Source: a virus
Length of the DNA stretch: 39,079 bases
IMG/VR virus record: IMGVR_UViG_3300045988_151092
Strand: one strand, 5' to 3'
Part shown: positions 539-14,243 of the stretch, one piece after another
How the letters are laid out: each line of letters begins with the position of its first letter
Numbering within the stretch: the stretch's first letter is position 1
Notes under the pieces: generated by a model
Databases searched by the model: none
Told to the model about the DNA's origin: nothing
What the model saw: the letters and a program-made list of their open reading frames with translations, nothing else
Program-made: the position numbers and the translations under genes

Positions 539-2047
539 TCACATAAAGGTAACATCTAAATCATTTGTTTCAGGGTCATAAACAATCTTTTTAAATATAC
601 TCATAGTAATTTTTCTTTTGTCATCAACACTTAAATTATTATTAAAAGCTTTTATATTATTATATATAAGAGCTTTATCTGTTTTTATCTTTGAATTTAA
701 TTCTTGTAACTCTAATTCTACAATATTACTCTTGATAGATGACTTTTCTTTTATTAAATTTTCAATTTTATCTATAAATATTAATGAAGCATCATTACTT
801 AATAATGCTATTTTATCAGTAAGATTAGAAATTGTTTTATCAATTTCAATTACTTTTTTATTTAAGCTAGCTATTTTAAAAGAGTTATCAACTTTATTTA
901 TAGAGTATGATGAATTAAATATTTTTTCATCTTTTAAAGAATATATTAAAGCTGAAACTTTAGCTTCTAATACATCTTGTTTAACTCTTTTAGTATTAGT
1001 ACAAGTTTTTAGCTTACCACGAACAGCATCTCTACAAGAGTAATAACTATAGGTTGATACATATATTTTTTCTTCACCTTTTTTATTATAGTACTTAGTT
1101 TTAGTGGTTTTAGTTTGTCCGCAATATGTTTGTCCACAGCATTTACACCTAATAGTTTTAGTAAGCCAAAACTTCTCACTAAATCTATTACCTTCTCTTG
1201 AAATATTTTTATCCATATCTTTATTTACAGAAATCCAAATAGAAGGTTCTATTAATCCAACTATATTACTAACAATAGCATATTTAGTGTCCTTATCTGT
1301 ATAGGTTAAATATGAATGTATATTATCTTCAGTTCCTTGAACTATATATCCTTTAGACTTTAAATAAAGGGATACTGAAGAGGAGCTCTTAACATAAATA
1401 GGTTTTCTTAAAGTTGTTGCTAATGTACCTCCTAAAAATTTATGGTTATACTTGTGTTGTATAAACTGAATAAGGTCAGTATTTTTACTTTTTTCATATT
1501 TCATATTGAATACATCTAAAATCATATCTTTATTATCCCATTCAATACCACCATTTGGATTATTTTTAAATCCTGTAGGAGGAGAGCCACCTGTCCATTT
1601 ACCTTTTTTAGCTATAGATAGTAAATTATCTTTTACTCTTTGCTGAATATTACTTCTTTCCATTTCAGCAAAACTTGCTAGTAGTGTAAGCATTACTTTA
1701 CCCATTTGAGTATTGGGGTCAAAACCTTCTGTTATAGATATAAGCTCAACATTATTTTCTTTAAACATTTCTAGTATATTTAGAAAGTCTAGTGTATTTC
1801 TTGCTATTCTATCTATTTTATAGCAAACAACTATATCTATTTGTTTTAACTCAGCTAATCTAAGCAACTTTTGAAATGCAGGTCTATTAGTATTACCACC
1901 AGAAAAACCTTCATCTTCAAAAACTTCAAAAGTAGAGTTAGTAAATTTTTTTAATATATATTCTTTACACATGTTTATTTGAGTTTCTATTGAAACAGAA
2001 CCTTCTATATAAACAGATTTTCTACTGTAAATTGCTACTTTTTTCAT
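539..2047 (-). CDS. Large serine recombinase (phage integrase)
   Basis: Has an N-terminal resolvase-type catalytic domain (VAIYSRKSV...), a recombinase domain, a Cys-rich zinc ribbon (RCKCCG...C..C) and a C-terminal coiled coil. Length is 502 aa and it sits at the edge of the lysogeny module. Confidence 0.9.
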   Translation of the reverse strand: MKKVAIYSRKSVYIEGSVSIETQINMCKEYILKKFTNSTFEVFEDEGFSGGNTNRPAFQKLLRLAELKQIDIVVCYKIDRIARNTLDFLNILEMFKENNVELISITEGFDPNTQMGKVMLTLLASFAEMERSNIQQRVKDNLLSIAKKGKWTGGSPPTGFKNNPNGGIEWDNKDMILDVFNMKYEKSKNTDLIQFIQHKYNHKFLGGTLATTLRKPIYVKSSSSVSLYLKSKGYIVQGTEDNIHSYLTYTDKDTKYAIVSNIVGLIEPSIWISVNKDMDKNISREGNRFSEKFWLTKTIRCKCCGQTYCGQTKTTKTKYYNKKGEEKIYVSTYSYYSCRDAVRGKLKTCTNTKRVKQDVLEAKVSALIYSLKDEKIFNSSYSINKVDNSFKIASLNKKVIEIDKTISNLTDKIALLSNDASLIFIDKIENLIKEKSSIKSNIVELELQELNSKIKTDKALIYNNIKAFNNNLSVDDKRKITMSIFKKIVYDPETNDLDVTFM

Positions 2048-11185: not shown

Positions 11186-11662
11186 ATGATAGATAAAAAC
11201 ATATTTAGAGAAACAGAAGTATTACTTAAGAACTACAGTAAGTTAGAATCAGAGATAGAGTTAATAAAATTAGAGATTAAAGATATACAGGAATCTTATA
11301 CTGGATGTGGAGCAATAGTATATAGTGAGAAAAGTGGTCCGACAAATAAGTTTAGTAGCATGGTTGAAGATGAAGTAATAAGGAAAGAGAAAGATCTATT
11401 CTATCTTAAGAGAGATTTAGATTATAAGGTTAGATTAAAGAGAAGAATAGATTTAGCTATACAAACTCTTGGAACAAAAGAAGAGAGAGATTTAATTAGA
11501 TTAAGATATATAAATCAACCTAAAGTTAGTTGGGGAACAGTTGCTAGACATTTAAAATATAATAAAGATTATTGCAGGAAGGAATTAAGACCTAAGGTTA
11601 TAAAGCAAATTGCAGATTTTGTATTCTATAATCCAGGAGTTCAAGAAAGGTTTATTATATAA
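11186..11662 (+). CDS. ArpU/RinA-like late-gene transcriptional activator
   Basis: The size, the N-terminal pattern (TEVLLKNY..LE.EI) and the C-terminal EERDLIRLRYI...W..VA..L HTH-like segment fit this family. Classically this gene lies just before terS. Confidence 0.65.
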   Translation: MIDKNIFRETEVLLKNYSKLESEIELIKLEIKDIQESYTGCGAIVYSEKSGPTNKFSSMVEDEVIRKEKDLFYLKRDLDYKVRLKRRIDLAIQTLGTKEERDLIRLRYINQPKVSWGTVARHLKYNKDYCRKELRPKVIKQIADFVFYNPGVQERFII

Positions 11663-11663
11663 A

Positions 11664-11705
11664 TATACCCCCTATTTATACCCGTTTAATACCCCACGTA
11701 TACCC
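11664..11705 (+). repeat. Four phased direct repeats of (T/A)ATACCC
   Basis: Copies start at 11664, 11677, 11688 and 11699 (spacing 13, 11, 11), immediately after the late-activator stop codon. Confidence 0.85.
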
Positions 11706-11820
11706 ACTTTTATGTGTTATTATGTAATTGTGGATAGGGTAAAGCGTTCATTGATGACCTCCTGGATGTAAATTAAAACTTAACTAACGGAAAAGCAAGG
11801 TGTAAAAGCCTTGCTAACAT

Positions 11821-11874
11821 GGAAGGTCACTAGCTGGAGATGCTTAAAGATGGTTCGAATCCATTGCCTTCCCC
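11821..11874 (+). ncRNA. tRNA-like element 1: acceptor stem, short GG-loop hairpin and T-arm, with no anticodon arm
   Basis: GGAAGGT (11821-27) pairs with GCCTTCC (11866-72). The T-arm is GATGG-TTCGAAT-CCATT (11849-65). The hairpin is AGC-TGGAGAT-GCT (11832-44). Confidence 0.4.
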
Positions 11875-11967
11875 TTTTATAAATTTTTAATCACAATTGA
11901 TAATTTAAAAGTTCTTATTTAAAAATCTTATTTCCCTTACATTGCAGGATTAAGTTCTTGCTTTTAT

Positions 11968-12056
11968 GGAGATATATCTCAATAGGTAGAGTATCGCTTT
12001 AGTAATGTTATAGGTTACTAGGGCGAAGGTTAGAGGTTCAAATTCTTTTATCCCCA
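11968..12056 (+). tRNA. tRNA-like element 2 (89 nt) with a 13-bp anticodon-type arm. Possibly a pseudo or atypical tRNA; the loop centre is TAT
   Basis: Acceptor GGAGATA/TATCCCC has one A-C mismatch. The D-arm carries A14, G18, G19 and A21. The arm pairs 11994-12006 with 12014-12026 around the loop GTTATAG. The variable loop is AGGTT, the T-arm is AGAGG-TTCAAAT-TCTTT, and the discriminator is A. Confidence 0.4.
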
Positions 12057-12187
12057 ATATTAAAACTTAATAAAATATCTCTTTGGACTTTAGGGGTTAC
12101 AGAGAGAAAAAGAATCTAGTTCTAGGTACTGGATTATTTTGTATTTAATAGTTAAATAAATATAAATTTACTATACATAGATATATT

Positions 12188-12196
12188 TGTTATAAT
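12188..12196 (+). promoter_or_regulatory. Extended -10 promoter element (TGtTATAAT) for the NACHT gene
   Basis: tgttataat lies 29 nt upstream of the ATG, with an AAGGGGG RBS at 12211-12217. Confidence 0.5.
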
Positions 12197-12224: not shown

Positions 12225-14243
12225 ATGGAAGAACTATTGAATAAAGGAATAACTTTGATAGCGACTACTTGTGTAGGTGAAATTATAAAATCAACTGTAA
12301 AAGAGTATGTTTCTCCACGATTAAAAACATTAAGTGACAATTCACTTTTAGATAAAGATAGAGTAAAAGTAGAAGAGAATATTTTGGATTATTTAGAAAG
12401 ATCTTATAAAAATAATAAATATATAAATACTATAGTGTTTAAAAATCAACAAAAAAAATTAGAAGATTTATATATACCATTAAAGGTAGTTAAATATATA
12501 GGTAAAAATGAAAAAAATAATTTTGAACTTTGTATAGATAAATATGATGAAAAGTTCATTCCATTACATAATAAAGTTTTGTTAGTAGATAATGCAGGTA
12601 TGGGAAAATCAACTATAATGAAATTTTTATATTTAAGTACGATTAAAGAAAATAAAGGGATACCAATATTAATAGAATTAAGAAAGTTAGATAAAAATAC
12701 ATCAATATTAGATTTTATAGTTAAAGAAATTAATGGAATTGATACTGAGTGTAATAAAAAGGTTATAGCTGAATTAATAAGAGGAGGTGATTTTATATTT
12801 TTCTTTGATGGATATGATGAAATAACATTAGAAAATAAAGATATTATTACAAAAAATATTCAAGAATTCATAGATAAAGCTCATAATAATAAATTTATAA
12901 TTTCATCTAGAGATGAGGATGAACTTACATCTTTTGGGGATTTTCAAAGATTTTATATAAAAGCACTTGCTAAAGAAGAAGCATATCAATTAATTAGCAA
13001 ATATGACGAAAATGGAGATTTATCAAAAGAATTAATAGATAATCTTGAAAATGAAGAAAATCTAAAAATATTGAAAGAATTTTTAGAAAATCCGCTTATG
13101 GTTTCTCTTTTATATAAAGCATTTGAATATAATAAAAGTATACCATACAAAAAGCACATATTTTATAAACAAGTATACGATGCATTGTTTGAGCAACATG
13201 ATTTATCAAAAGGTGGTGCATATAAACATATAAAAAGAAGTGGATTGGATATAGATGATTTTCATAAAATATTACGATGCTTAGCTTTTACTACATTGTC
13301 AAAGGGAATAGAATATTCAAAAGAAGATTTAATCAAATATATAGATTTTGTAAAAGAAAAAAATTCAGAAATAGAATTTAAAACGAGCTTTTTTATTTGG
13401 GACATAGTTCATTCAATACCATTATTCATAAAGGATGGATTGGAATATAAGTGGATACACAAATCATTTCAGGAGTATTTTGCTGCAGCTTATATATGCA
13501 ATGATTCTAAAAAGCAATCGGATAAATTTCTAAAAAAAATATCAAGTGAAGTTAAAATAGATAAATATTATAATATATTAGACTTTTGTTATGATATGGA
13601 TTACAAGAGTTTTTCTAGAAGTATATTATATCCTGTTATTGAAGAATTTATAAAATATTATAATGCTAGCTACAATAATCAATATTATTCTAATATTGAT
13701 GAAAAACATATTAATATTAGAAAAAGTCTAGAATTTAGTTATGAAAAAATATTTATAAAAAGATTAAATGAAAACACTAGGCATTTACGAATTAAAAAAG
13801 ACGTTAATGATACATTTAGTTATACATTTAGTGATGTAAATTTTGATGGAGCAGTTAAGTTTATAATAACTAGCAAAGATTCGCTAGGTAATTTAAAGGA
13901 AGTTGCAGCAAATATAGGTAGTAAAAGAAAAACATCATTAATGAAGTTGTTATACAATAAAAGGAATAGTATTGTAAGTGAAATAGAAGAAGTTAAGAAT
14001 ATGAAAGGAGATATTACAGAAATAGTTCAAAATTATGAATGGAATTTACTAAATGATGATGTAGAAAATATATTTAATAGAAAAGATAAATTTCTTATCA
14101 TACATAATTGGTTTCAAAAATATGCTTCAAATGATCTTGATGAAATACCTGCAATAATTTTTAACTATAGTGAGTGCATTAAATTAAAAAATAATATAGA
14201 TAAAGAAATTATTGAAGAAGAAAGTGACTTAGACTTTTTGTAG
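12225..14243 (+). CDS. NACHT-family STAND P-loop NTPase (bacterial NLR-like, candidate anti-phage sensor)
   Basis: Motifs seen: Walker A VDNAGMGKST (aa 121-130), ILIELRKL, Walker B DFIFFFDGYDE (aa 189-199), FIISSRDE, ENPLMVSLLY and HKSFQEYFAAAY. The N-terminal region (about 110 aa) and C-terminal region (about 240 aa) show no recognisable domain or repeats. Confidence 0.8.
   Translation: MEELLNKGITLIATTCVGEIIKSTVKEYVSPRLKTLSDNSLLDKDRVKVEENILDYLERSYKNNKYINTIVFKNQQKKLEDLYIPLKVVKYIGKNEKNNFELCIDKYDEKFIPLHNKVLLVDNAGMGKSTIMKFLYLSTIKENKGIPILIELRKLDKNTSILDFIVKEINGIDTECNKKVIAELIRGGDFIFFFDGYDEITLENKDIITKNIQEFIDKAHNNKFIISSRDEDELTSFGDFQRFYIKALAKEEAYQLISKYDENGDLSKELIDNLENEENLKILKEFLENPLMVSLLYKAFEYNKSIPYKKHIFYKQVYDALFEQHDLSKGGAYKHIKRSGLDIDDFHKILRCLAFTTLSKGIEYSKEDLIKYIDFVKEKNSEIEFKTSFFIWDIVHSIPLFIKDGLEYKWIHKSFQEYFAAAYICNDSKKQSDKFLKKISSEVKIDKYYNILDFCYDMDYKSFSRSILYPVIEEFIKYYNASYNNQYYSNIDEKHINIRKSLEFSYEKIFIKRLNENTRHLRIKKDVNDTFSYTFSDVNFDGAVKFIITSKDSLGNLKEVAANIGSKRKTSLMKLLYNKRNSIVSEIEEVKNMKGDITEIVQNYEWNLLNDDVENIFNRKDKFLIIHNWFQKYASNDLDEIPAIIFNYSECIKLKNNIDKEIIEEESDLDFL

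What the first reader, a model, noticed from the sequence alone, without database searches (positions are those of the whole stretch)
11968..12056. tRNA-like element 2 has a cloverleaf whose anticodon arm is extended to 13 bp
The 89-nt fold has these parts:
- Acceptor GGAGATA/TATCCCC, with one A-C mismatch.
- A D-arm carrying A14, G18, G19 and A21.
- A 5-nt variable loop, AGGTT.
- A T-arm, AGAGG-TTCAAAT-TCTTT.
- Discriminator A.

The anticodon arm is a continuous 13-bp helix (11994-12006 with 12014-12026, including 3 G.U pairs). It caps a 7-nt loop GTTATAG, which has T at position 33, A at position 37, and TAT at its centre.

Removing the 8 extra base pairs gives exactly 73 nt, the length of a canonical tRNA. 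No standard type-I or type-II tRNA fold fits. I know of no described bacterial or phage tRNA class with this geometry.

It could be a degenerate tRNA-Ile(UAU)-like gene, a tRNA with a novel 8+8-nt helical insertion, or a deliberate tRNA mimic.
Basis: seen in the sequence. Interest (0 to 1): 0.7.

Follow-up and report, generated by a model that had tools for sequence, protein, structure and literature searches.

The report
Prophage tRNA-like gene, rod-shaped anticodon arm
This is a real tRNA-derived gene in a Clostridium perfringens prophage whose anticodon loop has been replaced by a 16-base-longer insert, so it almost certainly cannot read codons; it is one allele of a small, apparently undescribed family of such tRNA look-alikes.

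Summary
Bases 11968-12056 (+) match the Rfam tRNA model at 44.6 bits (threshold 29), with 16 extra bases in the anticodon loop. They fold into a 13-bp arm capped by GUUAUAG. ARAGORN in its default mode calls no tRNA.

It is not a tRNA-Ile. It sits in a tRNA cassette slot downstream of the rinA late-regulator gene of C. perfringens temperate phages. Most relatives carry a normal tRNA-Ser(GCU), tRNA-Asn(GUU) or tRNA-Trp(CCA) there.

Four other alleles share its body and also have 22-23 bases in place of the 7-base loop. In those alleles the insert is not Watson-Crick paired, so the 8-bp extension is specific to this allele. It arose by fast, pairing-directed change of the insert.

The four normal tRNA helices are kept across the family by compensatory and wobble changes. 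No anticodon or intron reading is consistent between alleles.

This copy also lacks the encoded CCA and has U10•U25 and G53•U61.

Best reading: a non-decoding tRNA-shaped RNA that acts through its tRNA body. A decaying copy remains a serious rival. The function is inferred, not shown.

The parts
11968..12056 (+). Element 2, a tRNA-derived gene of 89 nt ending at discriminator A. No CCA is encoded; AUA follows.
   Evidence: RF00005 scores 44.6 bits, model positions 1-71 of 71. It aligns with 4 related alleles.
11968..11974 (+). Acceptor stem, 5' strand GGAGAUA. It pairs with 12049-12055 (UAUCCCC) and has an A3•C70 mismatch.
   Evidence: Six of the 7 pairs are invariant in 5 alleles. A•C occurs at 3:70 in 3 of 5 alleles and A-U in the other 2.
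11977..11992 (+). D arm UCUC-AAUAGGUA-GAGU. G18 and G19 are present. The 10:25 pair is U•U in this copy only.
11994..11998 (+). Canonical 5-bp anticodon stem, 5' strand UCGCU. It pairs with 12022-12026 (GGCGA).
   Evidence: 96% paired across the family, and 3 of the 5 pairs show changes on both sides.
11999..12021 (+). The 23-nt insert that replaces the 7-nt anticodon loop. 11999-12006 (UUAGUAAU) pairs with 12014-12021 (GUUACUAG), and the apical loop is GUUAUAG (12007-12013).
   Evidence: Searches give the fold. Searches show that the insert length (22-23 nt) is conserved but the 8 pairs exist only in this allele. The apical loop GYUN(C)UAG is similar in all alleles.
12027..12031 (+). Variable loop AGGUU.
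   Evidence: Invariant in the 5 alleles.
12032..12048 (+). T arm AGAGG-UUCAAAU-UCUUU. G53•U61 is specific to this copy; the other alleles have G53-C61.
   Evidence: The helix is 100% paired across the family.
11944..11961 (+). Leader hairpin GCAGGAUUAAGUUCUUGC, ending 6 nt upstream of the element.
   Evidence: It is present 4-6 nt upstream of the slot-2 tRNA or tRNA-like gene in nearly all related loci. It folds at -7.6 kcal/mol, z = -3.1. L018 has the compensatory variant GUAGGA...UCCUAC.
11821..11872 (+). Element 1, a 52-nt mini tRNA-like unit in the first cassette slot: a 7-bp acceptor-like stem and a T arm with GGUUCGAAUCC, but no anticodon arm.
   Evidence: Conserved at 78-90% identity in 5 isolated C. 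perfringens phages. The acceptor plus T-arm structure is 98.8% paired in 7 variants, with 2 pairs changed on both sides.
11795..11814 (+). Leader hairpin GCAAGGUGUAAAAGCCUUGC, 6 nt upstream of element 1.
12079..12141 (+). Trailer of the small-RNA unit: a hairpin with a GGGGUUAC loop (12079-12106), then a terminator-like hairpin plus U run (about 12113-12141).
   Evidence: -19.3 kcal/mol, z = -2.6. Equivalent hairpins and the terminator AGAAUCUAGUUUAGGCUAGGUUCUUUUU occur in the relatives.

Best explanation
Element 2 is a tRNA-derived gene that no longer decodes.

It is this prophage's allele of a small family of tRNA-like RNAs. The family sits in the second slot of a two-slot small-RNA cassette array: rinA, leader hairpin, element 1, spacer, leader hairpin, tRNA or tRNA-like gene, hairpin, terminator. 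The array belongs to Clostridium perfringens temperate siphophages.

The family keeps a complete tRNA 'top half' (acceptor stem, D arm with G18G19, T arm and T loop) and a 5-6-bp anticodon stem. It carries 22-23 nt where the 7-nt anticodon loop should be. In this allele the insert has been converted into 8 further Watson-Crick/G•U pairs, so the arm is a rigid 13-bp rod with a 7-nt loop.

Inferred mechanism:
- The RNA is transcribed with element 1 as a short unit that ends at the terminator near 12141.
- RNase P cuts it at the 5' end. Because this copy has no encoded CCA, RNase Z cuts at the 3' end and the CCA-adding enzyme completes it.
- It accumulates as a stable tRNA-shaped RNA, as engineered 'tRNA scaffolds' with a helix in place of the anticodon arm are known to do.
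- Eight extra A-form pairs move the loop about 22 Å further from the elbow and rotate it by about 260°. It therefore cannot place an anticodon in the ribosomal decoding centre or in anticodon-reading synthetases.
- It acts through its tRNA body in trans, as a competitor or decoy for a factor that recognises the acceptor/elbow of tRNAs. A tRNA-targeting host toxin or defence nuclease is the most attractive candidate.

My estimates: tRNA-derived member of this family, about 0.9. Non-decoding, about 0.9. Maintained by selection rather than decaying, about 0.6. Trans-acting decoy specifically, about 0.3-0.35. The single confidence value given (0.5) is for the statement taken as a whole up to 'functional, non-decoding tRNA-shaped RNA acting through its tRNA body'.
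For: Shown:
- Rfam tRNA hit at 44.6 bits, with a 16-nt insertion confined to the anticodon loop.
- Four further distinct alleles were found: L006 (identical to L267), L008, L071 and L125. They have the same slot, leader hairpin, acceptor, D and T arms, and a 22-23-nt insert.
- Across the 5 alleles the four canonical helices are 91-100% paired. Three anticodon-stem pairs changed on both sides and 4 pairs changed G-C/A-U to G•U. Universal tRNA positions are kept, and sliding the partners drops pairing to 44-48%.
- A truly decayed tRNA-Asn at the same slot (L282) has lost G19, has a broken T loop and has stem mismatches. That shows what neutral decay looks like here.
- Compared with L125, which shares the upstream spacer at 91% identity, the body is 85-91% identical but the insert only about 48%. 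Every change in the eight paired positions favours pairing. 8/8 pairs occur in 0.4% of shuffles.
- The same 562-nt intergenic sequence is 100% identical in 4 other contigs, including two C. perfringens genome assemblies.
- Other lineages in the same array also keep the acceptor and T arm but lack a usable anticodon loop: element 1, the phiCp-B Ser-like gene with a 4-nt loop and L199.
- L006 and L125 fold into the cloverleaf as their MFE structure.

Inferred: processing, stability, the geometric argument and the decoy role.
Against: - There are no expression, processing or binding data.
- Only 5 alleles were found, so the statistics are thin.
- The extension helix has no comparative support, because it is unique to this allele.
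- This allele is the least tRNA-like of the family: no encoded CCA, U10•U25, G53•U61, and the lowest Rfam score (44.6 bits against 45.8 and 56.7 for L008 and L006).
- With its mismatches opened, the cloverleaf is 6.5 kcal/mol less stable than an alternative fold. This is compatible with a copy that is losing the tRNA-body function.
- No candidate partner is encoded nearby. The gene downstream lies behind a terminator and differs between relatives.
- Literature searches found no precedent.
Confidence: 0.5

Rival explanations
1. Decaying copy. The family may or may not be functional, but this allele is a pseudogene on its way out, and the long hairpin has no function.
For: - Relatives with the same flanking spacer carry a normal tRNA-Asn(GUU) in this position (L010, L256, L272, L294).
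- This copy alone has lost the encoded CCA, has U10•U25 and has G53•U61 at a near-universal G-C pair.
- It has the lowest Rfam score of the family.
- Its cloverleaf is not the predicted MFE fold.
- All sampled copies are identical, so there is no sign of ongoing selection.
Against: - The insert diverged far more than the flanks and the body, and did so in the one direction that gives 8/8 pairs. Changes fell on both strands and include G•U pairs, so this was not a single DNA template-switch event.
- One of the stem changes relative to L125 is a compensatory double change (C27-G43 to U-A) and two are wobble-preserving.
- A real decayed tRNA at this slot (L282) looks different.
- CCA-less tRNA genes are normal in Firmicutes (my own knowledge).
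Confidence: 0.3
2. Cis-acting processing module ('tRNA punctuation'). The tRNA body is kept only as an RNase P/RNase Z cleavage signal. Cleavage separates and end-matures the rinA transcript and the small RNAs, and the conserved hairpin just upstream becomes a protective 3' end. The anticodon arm is irrelevant and free to vary.
For: - A conserved hairpin lies 4-6 nt upstream of every tRNA or tRNA-like unit.
- Element 1 is reduced to an acceptor stem plus T arm, which is the minimal RNase P/Z substrate, yet it keeps compensatory changes.
- Anticodon arms in this array are deleted, shortened to a tetraloop, or expanded in different lineages, while the acceptor and T arms persist.
Against: - The insert keeps its length (22-23 nt) and an apical GYUN(C)UAG motif across 5 alleles, including one from another Clostridium species.
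- In this allele the insert was reshaped into a perfect helix. Neither feature is expected if the arm were unconstrained.
- A terminator follows directly, so there is nothing downstream to release.
Confidence: 0.2
3. A decoding tRNA after all. Either the 16 nt are a short intron removed to give a 73-nt tRNA, or the extended arm is used directly as tRNA-Ile(UAU) or tRNA-Asn(GUU).
For: - ARAGORN in intron mode at a lowered threshold models this copy as tRNA-Thr(AGU) with a 16-nt intron at the canonical 37/38 position, giving the loop UUAGUAG with U33 and A37.
- 89 - 16 = 73 nt.
- UGUUA, identical to U33-A37 of tRNA-Asn, is present at 12006-12010.
Against: - The same program gives Leu(AAG), Leu(AAG), Val(AAC) and Leu(AAG) for the relatives, with 13-14-nt 'introns' at a non-canonical 34/35 position and a pyrimidine at position 37. 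No isotype or splice position is conserved.
- The helix is continuous and has no bulge-helix-bulge motif.
- 16 nt cannot be a group I intron, and there is no Rfam intron hit.
- A34 anticodons other than ACG are not used in bacteria, bacteria lack the splicing endonuclease, and a 13-bp arm does not fit the ribosome (my own knowledge).
Confidence: 0.04

Closest known systems
Ordinary phage-encoded tRNAs at the same locus, e.g. tRNA-Asn(GUU) of phage phiSM101 (CPR_C0020) and tRNA-Ser(GCU) of phiCp-A (phiCpA_00059)
   Same: Same position downstream of the RinA-type regulator gene, with the same leader hairpin and trailer. The acceptor GGAGAUA/UAUCUCC is identical to several tRNA-Asn cassettes, and the D loop CAAUAGGUAGAG is the same as in L261/L262 tRNA-Asn.
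   Different: Those tRNAs have a 5-bp stem and a 7-nt loop with a conserved anticodon, and ARAGORN calls them. Element 2 has 16 extra bases, no conserved anticodon and no encoded CCA.
Engineered 'tRNA scaffold' RNAs, in which the anticodon arm is replaced or extended by a helix (Ponchon and Dardel; cited from my own knowledge, not checked here)
   Same: The same architecture: an intact acceptor, D and T arms with a long helix in place of the anticodon stem-loop. Such RNAs are processed by tRNA enzymes and accumulate stably.
   Different: Those are artificial. Here the architecture is natural and phage-encoded, and the inserted helix carries no obvious cargo.
tRNA-like domain of tmRNA
   Same: A tRNA-shaped acceptor/T-arm module whose anticodon arm is replaced by a long helix and which does not decode by an anticodon.
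   Different: tmRNA has G3•U70 alanine identity, a reduced D arm, pseudoknots and a tag reading frame, and its long helix is formed by the two halves of a much larger RNA. ARAGORN finds no tmRNA and Rfam gives no tmRNA hit. Element 2 has A3•C70 and a closed hairpin arm.
Bacterial Y RNA-like YrlA, which contains a tRNA-like module
   Same: A non-coding RNA that mimics the tRNA elbow and is joined to a long helix.
   Different: In YrlA the RNA ends lie in the long (Ro/Rsr-binding) helix and the acceptor-like stem is closed. Here the ends are in the acceptor stem. Rfam gives no Y-RNA hit even at E up to 10.
Intron-containing pre-tRNAs of archaea and eukaryotes (anticodon-intron helix)
   Same: A 14-60-nt insert next to the anticodon that pairs with it and lengthens the anticodon helix. 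The insert is 16 nt here, and a 37/38 placement is formally possible.
   Different: There is no bulge-helix-bulge motif and no conserved mature anticodon among the alleles. The host is a bacterium, which lacks the splicing endonuclease.
tRNA pseudogenes and 'pseudo-tRNAs' such as Bacillus cereus tRNA-Other (from my own knowledge)
   Same: A tRNA-derived gene with a non-standard anticodon region and an uncertain role in translation.
   Different: The lesion here is a conserved, length-constrained insertion, and the rest of the molecule is kept by compensatory changes. tRNA-Other has a normal-length arm.

Membership tests
Canonical elongator tRNA (Rfam RF00005, type I) | Scores above the curated gathering threshold of the tRNA covariance model | tested here: met
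   44.6 bits against 29, with the full model matched (1-71).
Canonical elongator tRNA (Rfam RF00005, type I) | A 7-bp acceptor stem, 4-bp D stem and 5-bp T stem, with conserved U8, A14, G18G19, A21, U54U55C56 and A58 | tested here: met
   All are present, with three weak points: A3•C70, U10•U25 and G53•U61.
Canonical elongator tRNA (Rfam RF00005, type I) | A 5-bp anticodon stem closed by a 7-nt loop with U33 and a purine at position 37 | tested here: not met
   23 nt follow the 5-bp stem, forming a 13-bp arm here. ARAGORN in default mode finds no tRNA.
Canonical elongator tRNA (Rfam RF00005, type I) | 3' CCA, aminoacylation and decoding | not testable with these tools
   CCA is not encoded here (AUA follows A73), but it is encoded in the other 4 alleles. 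Addition of CCA and charging need experiments.
tRNA-Ile(UAU) | A UAU anticodon conserved in homologues and an Ile-type body | tested here: not met
   The central loop triplet differs between alleles (loops GUUAUAG, GCUAUAG, GUUACUAG, GUUUCUAG, GUUCCUAG). The closest normal tRNAs are the phage Asn cassettes. Host tRNA-Ile genes were not available for comparison.
Intron-containing tRNA | A bulge-helix-bulge motif at the splice sites (archaeal/eukaryal type) or a group I intron core (bacterial type) | tested here: not met
   The helix is continuous and has no bulges. The insert is 16 nt, and there is no intron family hit in Rfam at E up to 10.
Intron-containing tRNA | The same mature anticodon and intron position in homologues | tested here: not met
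   ARAGORN -i gives Thr(AGU) with a 38/39 insertion point for the window, and Leu(AAG) or Val(AAC) with a 34/35 insertion point for the relatives.
tmRNA (tRNA-like domain) | G3•U70, a tag reading frame and pseudoknots; detected by ARAGORN or Rfam | tested here: not met
   The 3:70 pair is A•C, ARAGORN finds no tmRNA and there is no Rfam hit.
YrlA / bacterial Y RNA | RNA ends in a long Ro-binding helix, a closed acceptor-like stem, and a match to the Rfam model | tested here: not met
   The topology is opposite and there is no Rfam hit.
Neutral tRNA pseudogene | Lesions scattered over the whole molecule, including invariant positions, and no excess of pair-preserving changes | tested here: inconclusive
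   Family level: not met, because pair-preserving changes dominate (contrast L282). This allele: U10, U61 and the loss of CCA fit decay, whereas the perfectly paired insert does not.
C. perfringens prophage tRNA-like family with an expanded anticodon loop (defined here) | Second cassette slot after the rinA-type gene, preceded by the GCAGGAUUAAGUUCCUGC hairpin | tested here: met
C. perfringens prophage tRNA-like family with an expanded anticodon loop (defined here) | Shared body (GGAGAUAUAKCUCAAUA... AGGUURGAGGUUCRAAYYCUYUUAUCYCC) and 22-23 nt between the strands of the 5-bp anticodon stem | tested here: met
   mean column identity is 89%, and the insert is 23, 23, 23, 23 and 22 nt.
C. perfringens prophage tRNA-like family with an expanded anticodon loop (defined here) | An insert that is largely unpaired by Watson-Crick rules and purine-rich (UGAARAAG...GUAAGUAA) | tested here: not met
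   Here the insert forms 8 standard pairs. The relatives have 1-3 standard pairs at the same positions.

The most novel reading that the evidence does not exclude
Clostridium perfringens temperate phages deliberately maintain a set of non-decoding tRNA mimics next to their real tRNA cassettes. The set includes element 1, the expanded-loop family that contains this 13-bp-arm allele, the phiCp-B Ser-like gene with a tetraloop, and L199. These RNAs keep the acceptor/elbow surface but have a disabled or remodelled anticodon arm. They would act as decoys or sponges for host tRNA-targeting immunity or toxins, or as sensors of it. The rapid, structure-directed remodelling of the arm seen in this allele would then be a trace of an arms race.
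Probability: 0.2. Interest if true: 0.75.

Novelty: new variant of a known kind. Interest (0 to 1): 0.45.

Why it matters
Phage tRNAs are currently explained either as codon-usage helpers or as replacements for host tRNAs destroyed by anticodon nucleases. A conserved phage tRNA look-alike that keeps everything except the ability to decode would point to a third use of the tRNA shape, such as a decoy, a sponge or a processing handle. It would also be a natural counterpart of the engineered tRNA scaffold.

The case is easy to test, because natural allele series exist at one locus: normal tRNA-Asn, the large-loop allele, the rod-arm allele and a decayed copy.

On the practical side, gene finders miss or mislabel these genes. 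ARAGORN reports nothing or 'tRNA-???', so they are probably under-annotated in C. perfringens genomes.

Tried and rejected
- tRNA-Ile(UAU): rejected. The triplet is not conserved and the body is Asn-cassette-like.
- Short intron: rejected. There is no BHB motif, and the isotype and position are inconsistent among alleles. Manually removing 16 nt never gives U33/R37 in the relatives.
- attP or integration-site remnant: rejected. The phage integrase is a large serine recombinase encoded 10 kb away, and the element is a complete gene in a conserved cassette.
- Antisense or target-pairing role of the insert: no match to the reverse complement elsewhere in the window with up to 3 mismatches. In this allele only 7 nt are unpaired.
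- Copy of the insert from elsewhere: only chance 11-mers in 2 Mb of fetched loci.
- Single template-switch origin of the hairpin: unlikely. Both strands changed and G•U pairs are present.
- Kink-turn in the relatives' insert: the GA/AG positions do not fit.
- Loop-E/S-turn (GAA opposite AGUA with a 7/8-nt strand asymmetry): fits L006, L125 and L008 but not L071. Left as an idea only.
- Palindromic loop or kissing dimer: the palindromes are offset between alleles, so the evidence is weak.
- Link to the downstream defence gene: rejected. A terminator and a separate promoter intervene, and the downstream gene varies independently.
- Searches that found no further members:
  - exact and degenerate patterns in IMG/VR, GTDB genomes and JGI metagenomes
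  - blastn against isolated phages and plasmids
  - the 16-nt hairpin pattern, which was too unspecific and mostly wasted
  - eleven look-ups of RinA variants, which yielded only the same alleles.
- Six literature searches found no description.
Full report

Yes.

- The Rfam tRNA covariance model matches it end to end at 44.6 bits (gathering score 29, E = 1.8e-6). This is the only gathering-level Rfam hit in the whole 39-kb window.
- Infernal puts 21 bases where the model has 5. That is 16 extra bases, all inside the anticodon loop.
- RNAfold predicts the continuous 13-bp arm (11994-12006 with 12014-12026) and the 7-nt loop GUUAUAG. The arm alone is -15.2 kcal/mol.
- 13/13 pairs arise in 6 of 200,000 shuffles of the arm.
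- ARAGORN in default mode finds no tRNA in the window.
- No ORF of 60 aa or more overlaps the element.

- The 10:25 pair is U•U.
- The T stem has G53•U61 at a position that is almost always G-C.
- No CCA is encoded.

**2. Where is it?**

The window is a Clostridium perfringens-type temperate siphophage or prophage. Its genes include:
- a large serine recombinase (539-2047, minus strand);
- an ERF-family recombinase;
- a RinA-family (DUF722) late regulator (11186-11662);
- small and large terminase subunits from 14303.

Element 2 lies in the 562-nt gap between rinA and a 672-aa NACHT + SNaCT5 protein (12225-14243).

The gap is organised as a small-RNA unit:
- a leader hairpin (11795-11814);
- element 1, a 52-nt mini tRNA-like unit (11821-11872);
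- a spacer;
- a second leader hairpin (11944-11961);
- element 2;
- a hairpin with a GGGGUUAC loop (12079-12106);
- a terminator-like hairpin with a U run (to about 12141).

A separate promoter-like site (12167-12196, 10 of 12 consensus matches with an extended TG) precedes the NACHT gene.

**3. What do relatives have at this place?**

I collected the same region from three kinds of source:
- isolated phages: phiCp-A, PhiS63, phiSM101, phi3626 and phiCp-B;
- IMG/VR contigs;
- many C. perfringens assemblies, reached through variants of the RinA protein.

Among 41 distinct versions of the array, slot 2 holds:

| Occupant of slot 2 | Number of arrays |
|---|---|
| Normal tRNA-Ser(GCU) | 13 |
| Normal tRNA-Asn(GUU) | 10 |
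| Normal tRNA-Trp(CCA) | 7 |
| Relative of element 2 | 5 |
| Other aberrant tRNA-like gene | 3 |
| Nothing | 2 |
| Contig ends | 1 |

The sample is biased, because two of the five relatives were fetched with family-specific patterns.

Loci with the same spacer as the window carry either a normal tRNA-Asn (L010, L256, L272, L294) or a normal tRNA-Ser (L296, L301). One of them, L125, carries a relative of element 2.

**4. The family**

Pattern scans of IMG/VR, GTDB genomes and JGI metagenomes gave four further distinct alleles:
- L006 (the same as L025, L124 and L267, and common in assemblies);
- L008 (the same as L024 and L127);
- L071 (Clostridium sp. B9);
- L125.

All four are 92-93 nt including an encoded ACCA. 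All have GGAGAUA/UAUCYCC acceptors, the D arm GCUC-AAUAAGGRA-GAGY and the T arm RGAGG-UUCRAAY-CCUYU. All have 22-23 nt between the strands of a 5-bp anticodon stem.

Across the five alleles:
- The acceptor, D, anticodon and T helices are 91%, 95%, 96% and 100% paired.
- Three anticodon-stem pairs changed on both sides.
- Four pairs switch between Watson-Crick and G•U.
- Sliding the partners by 1-3 columns drops pairing to 44-48%.

By my count about ten substitutions preserve pairing and three break it. A genuinely decayed tRNA-Asn at the same slot (L282) has lost G19, has a disrupted T loop and carries stem mismatches. The family therefore looks like a structured RNA under selection for the tRNA body, not like debris.

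**5. The 13-bp arm is specific to this allele**

The eight extension pairs are 45% paired across the family. Only the first of them, effectively a sixth stem pair, is kept. The window is the only allele with all eight.

The relatives have purine-rich strands around a similar apical loop. For example, L125 has UGAAGAA...GUAAGUAA. The apical loops are:

| Allele | Apical loop |
|---|---|
| Window | GUUAUAG |
| L008 | GCUAUAG |
| L125 | GUUACUAG |
| L006 | GUUUCUAG |
| L071 | GUUCCUAG |

L006 and L125 fold as a cloverleaf with a 6-bp stem and a 21-nt loop. Their arms are worth only -4 to -7 kcal/mol.

I compared the window with L125, which shares the upstream spacer at 91% identity over 100 nt. 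The tRNA body is 85-91% identical, but the insert is only about 48% identical. The changes fall on both strands and all create pairs, including G•U pairs. This argues for selection on RNA pairing rather than drift or a single DNA template-switch event. 8/8 pairs occur in 0.4% of shuffles of the insert.

Whether the relatives form a non-Watson-Crick rod is unproven. A GAA/AGUA loop-E-like arrangement with a 7/8-nt strand asymmetry fits L006, L125 and L008 but not L071.

**6. Does it decode?**

Almost certainly not.

- No anticodon is conserved. This copy can be read as UAU (apical loop), GUU (UGUUA is identical to U33-A37 of tRNA-Asn, one base to the 5' side) or AGU (if a 37/38 intron is assumed).
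- ARAGORN in intron mode gives Thr(AGU) with a 16-nt intron for the window. For the relatives it gives Leu(AAG) or Val(AAC), with 13-14-nt 'introns' at a different, non-canonical position and a pyrimidine at position 37.
- The helix has no bulge-helix-bulge motif, and 16 nt cannot be a group I intron.
- From established A-form geometry (2.8 Å and about 33° per pair), eight extra pairs move the loop by about 22 Å and about 260°. That is incompatible with the fixed distance between the anticodon and the acceptor end that the ribosome and anticodon-reading synthetases use. This step is inference.

**7. How it most likely works**

Shown: it is a tRNA-derived gene, a member of a family whose tRNA body is conserved by compensatory change, with a remodelled anticodon arm, inside a terminator-bounded small-RNA unit.

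Inferred:
- It is cut out by RNase P and, being CCA-less, by RNase Z, and then receives CCA.
- It is stable, as engineered tRNA scaffolds of the same architecture are (my own knowledge).
- It acts through the acceptor/elbow surface.

I favour a trans-acting decoy or competitor for a tRNA-binding factor, with a probability of about 0.3-0.35. The argument is that several independent lineages in this array keep the acceptor and T arm while disabling the anticodon loop: element 1, the phiCp-B Ser-like gene with a 4-nt loop, L199 and this family. In addition, the insert's length and apical motif are constrained.

The rivals are:
- a cis-acting processing or 3'-end-forming module, supported by the conserved hairpins 4-6 nt upstream (about 0.2);
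- decay of this particular copy (about 0.3);
- a decoding tRNA (about 0.04).

Against a functional reading of this copy:
- It has no encoded CCA, and it has U10•U25 and G53•U61.
- It has the lowest Rfam score in the family.
- Its cloverleaf is 6.5 kcal/mol above an alternative fold.
- The five sampled copies are identical, so they carry no information on selection.

**8. Comparison with known things**

- It works like a tRNA scaffold or tRNA mimic.
- It is not a member of the canonical tRNAs, because the anticodon-arm criterion fails.
- It is not a tmRNA or a YrlA, because there are no hits and the topology is wrong.
- It is not an intron-containing tRNA.
- Rfam has no family for it other than tRNA.
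- Isolated-phage and plasmid collections contain no copy.
- Six full-text literature searches found no description.

I rate it a new variant of a known kind (phage tRNA-derived non-coding RNA). It is of moderate interest: a real and unusual architecture with a testable allele series, but with no functional evidence. The headline feature, the 13-bp helix, is confined to one allele.

Noticed in passing
window 11821-11872 (+): Element 1 is a 52-nt mini tRNA-like unit: a 7-bp acceptor-like stem GGAAGGU/GCCUUCC, a short hairpin and a T arm with GGUUCGAAUCC. It has no anticodon arm and no CCA. It looks like a tRNA-Ser(GCU) with the D and anticodon arms deleted, because it keeps the GCUUAAAG of the Ser variable arm. 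It is conserved in phi3626, PhiS63, phiSM101 and phiCp-B. A second 42-nt form (GGAAGGAAGAGUAUUAAUAAAGGUGCAACUCCUUUACCUUCC) occupies slot 1 in most prophages.
   Followed up: partly
window 11795-11814 and 11944-11961 (+): Conserved hairpins (GCAAGGUGUAAAAGCCUUGC and GCAGGAUUAAGUUCYUGC) end 4-6 nt upstream of the 5' end of every tRNA or tRNA-like unit in the array. L018 carries a compensatory variant (GUAGGA...UCCUAC). They may be processing or 3'-end-protection signals.
   Followed up: partly
window 12079-12141 (+): After the tRNA slot comes a hairpin whose loop carries a conserved GGGRUUAC motif. Its stem sequence differs between loci (CUCUUUG/CAGAGAG here, CCUUUG/CAAAGG elsewhere). A terminator follows (AGAAUCUAGUUUAGGCUAGGUUCUUUUU in relatives, altered here). 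There is no Rfam match.
   Followed up: partly
window 11663-11710 (+): Directly after the rinA stop codon there are four spaced copies of AUACCC (ATATACCCCCTATTTATACCCGTTTAATACCCCACGTATACCCAC). They are conserved in most related prophages and could be a regulator-binding array or part of the late promoter.
   Followed up: no
window 12225-14243 (+): A 672-aa NACHT/NB-ARC + SNaCT5 protein (bacterial NLR-like, probably antiphage) with its own promoter-like site at 12167-12196. It gave no PADLOC hit. In relatives the same position holds unrelated cargo (DUF4062, PIN_8/PIN_12, DUF4145 or DUF5677 proteins), so this is a variable accessory or defence slot between the tRNA array and the terminase genes. 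In L131 the gene is split in two.
   Followed up: partly
L005 1651-1739 (phage phiCp-B, MW478290.1): A tRNA-Ser-like gene with a long variable arm and an encoded CCA. Its anticodon arm is a perfect 5-bp stem closed by a 4-nt loop GGCG. ARAGORN reports 'tRNA-???', and the record has no annotation for it.
   Followed up: no
L199 about 1869-1938 (IMGVR_UViG_2718218460_000002): Another slot-2 tRNA-like gene (66 nt plus CCA). The acceptor, D and T arms are intact, but only 16 nt (AUCCACUACUAAAGAU) stand where the anticodon arm and variable loop should be.
   Followed up: no
L282 about 2265-2340: A clearly decayed tRNA-Asn(GUU) at the same slot: G19 changed to A, a disrupted T loop, and acceptor and anticodon-stem mismatches. 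It is a useful reference for what neutral decay looks like in this cassette.
   Followed up: partly
window 11968-12056 and alleles L008, L071: The 3:70 pair is A•C in three of the five alleles and A-U in the other two. With G1-C72, G2-C71, G4-C69 and A73, the acceptor end resembles tRNA-Ala with A•C in place of G3•U70. Whether this matters for any synthetase is unknown.
   Followed up: no
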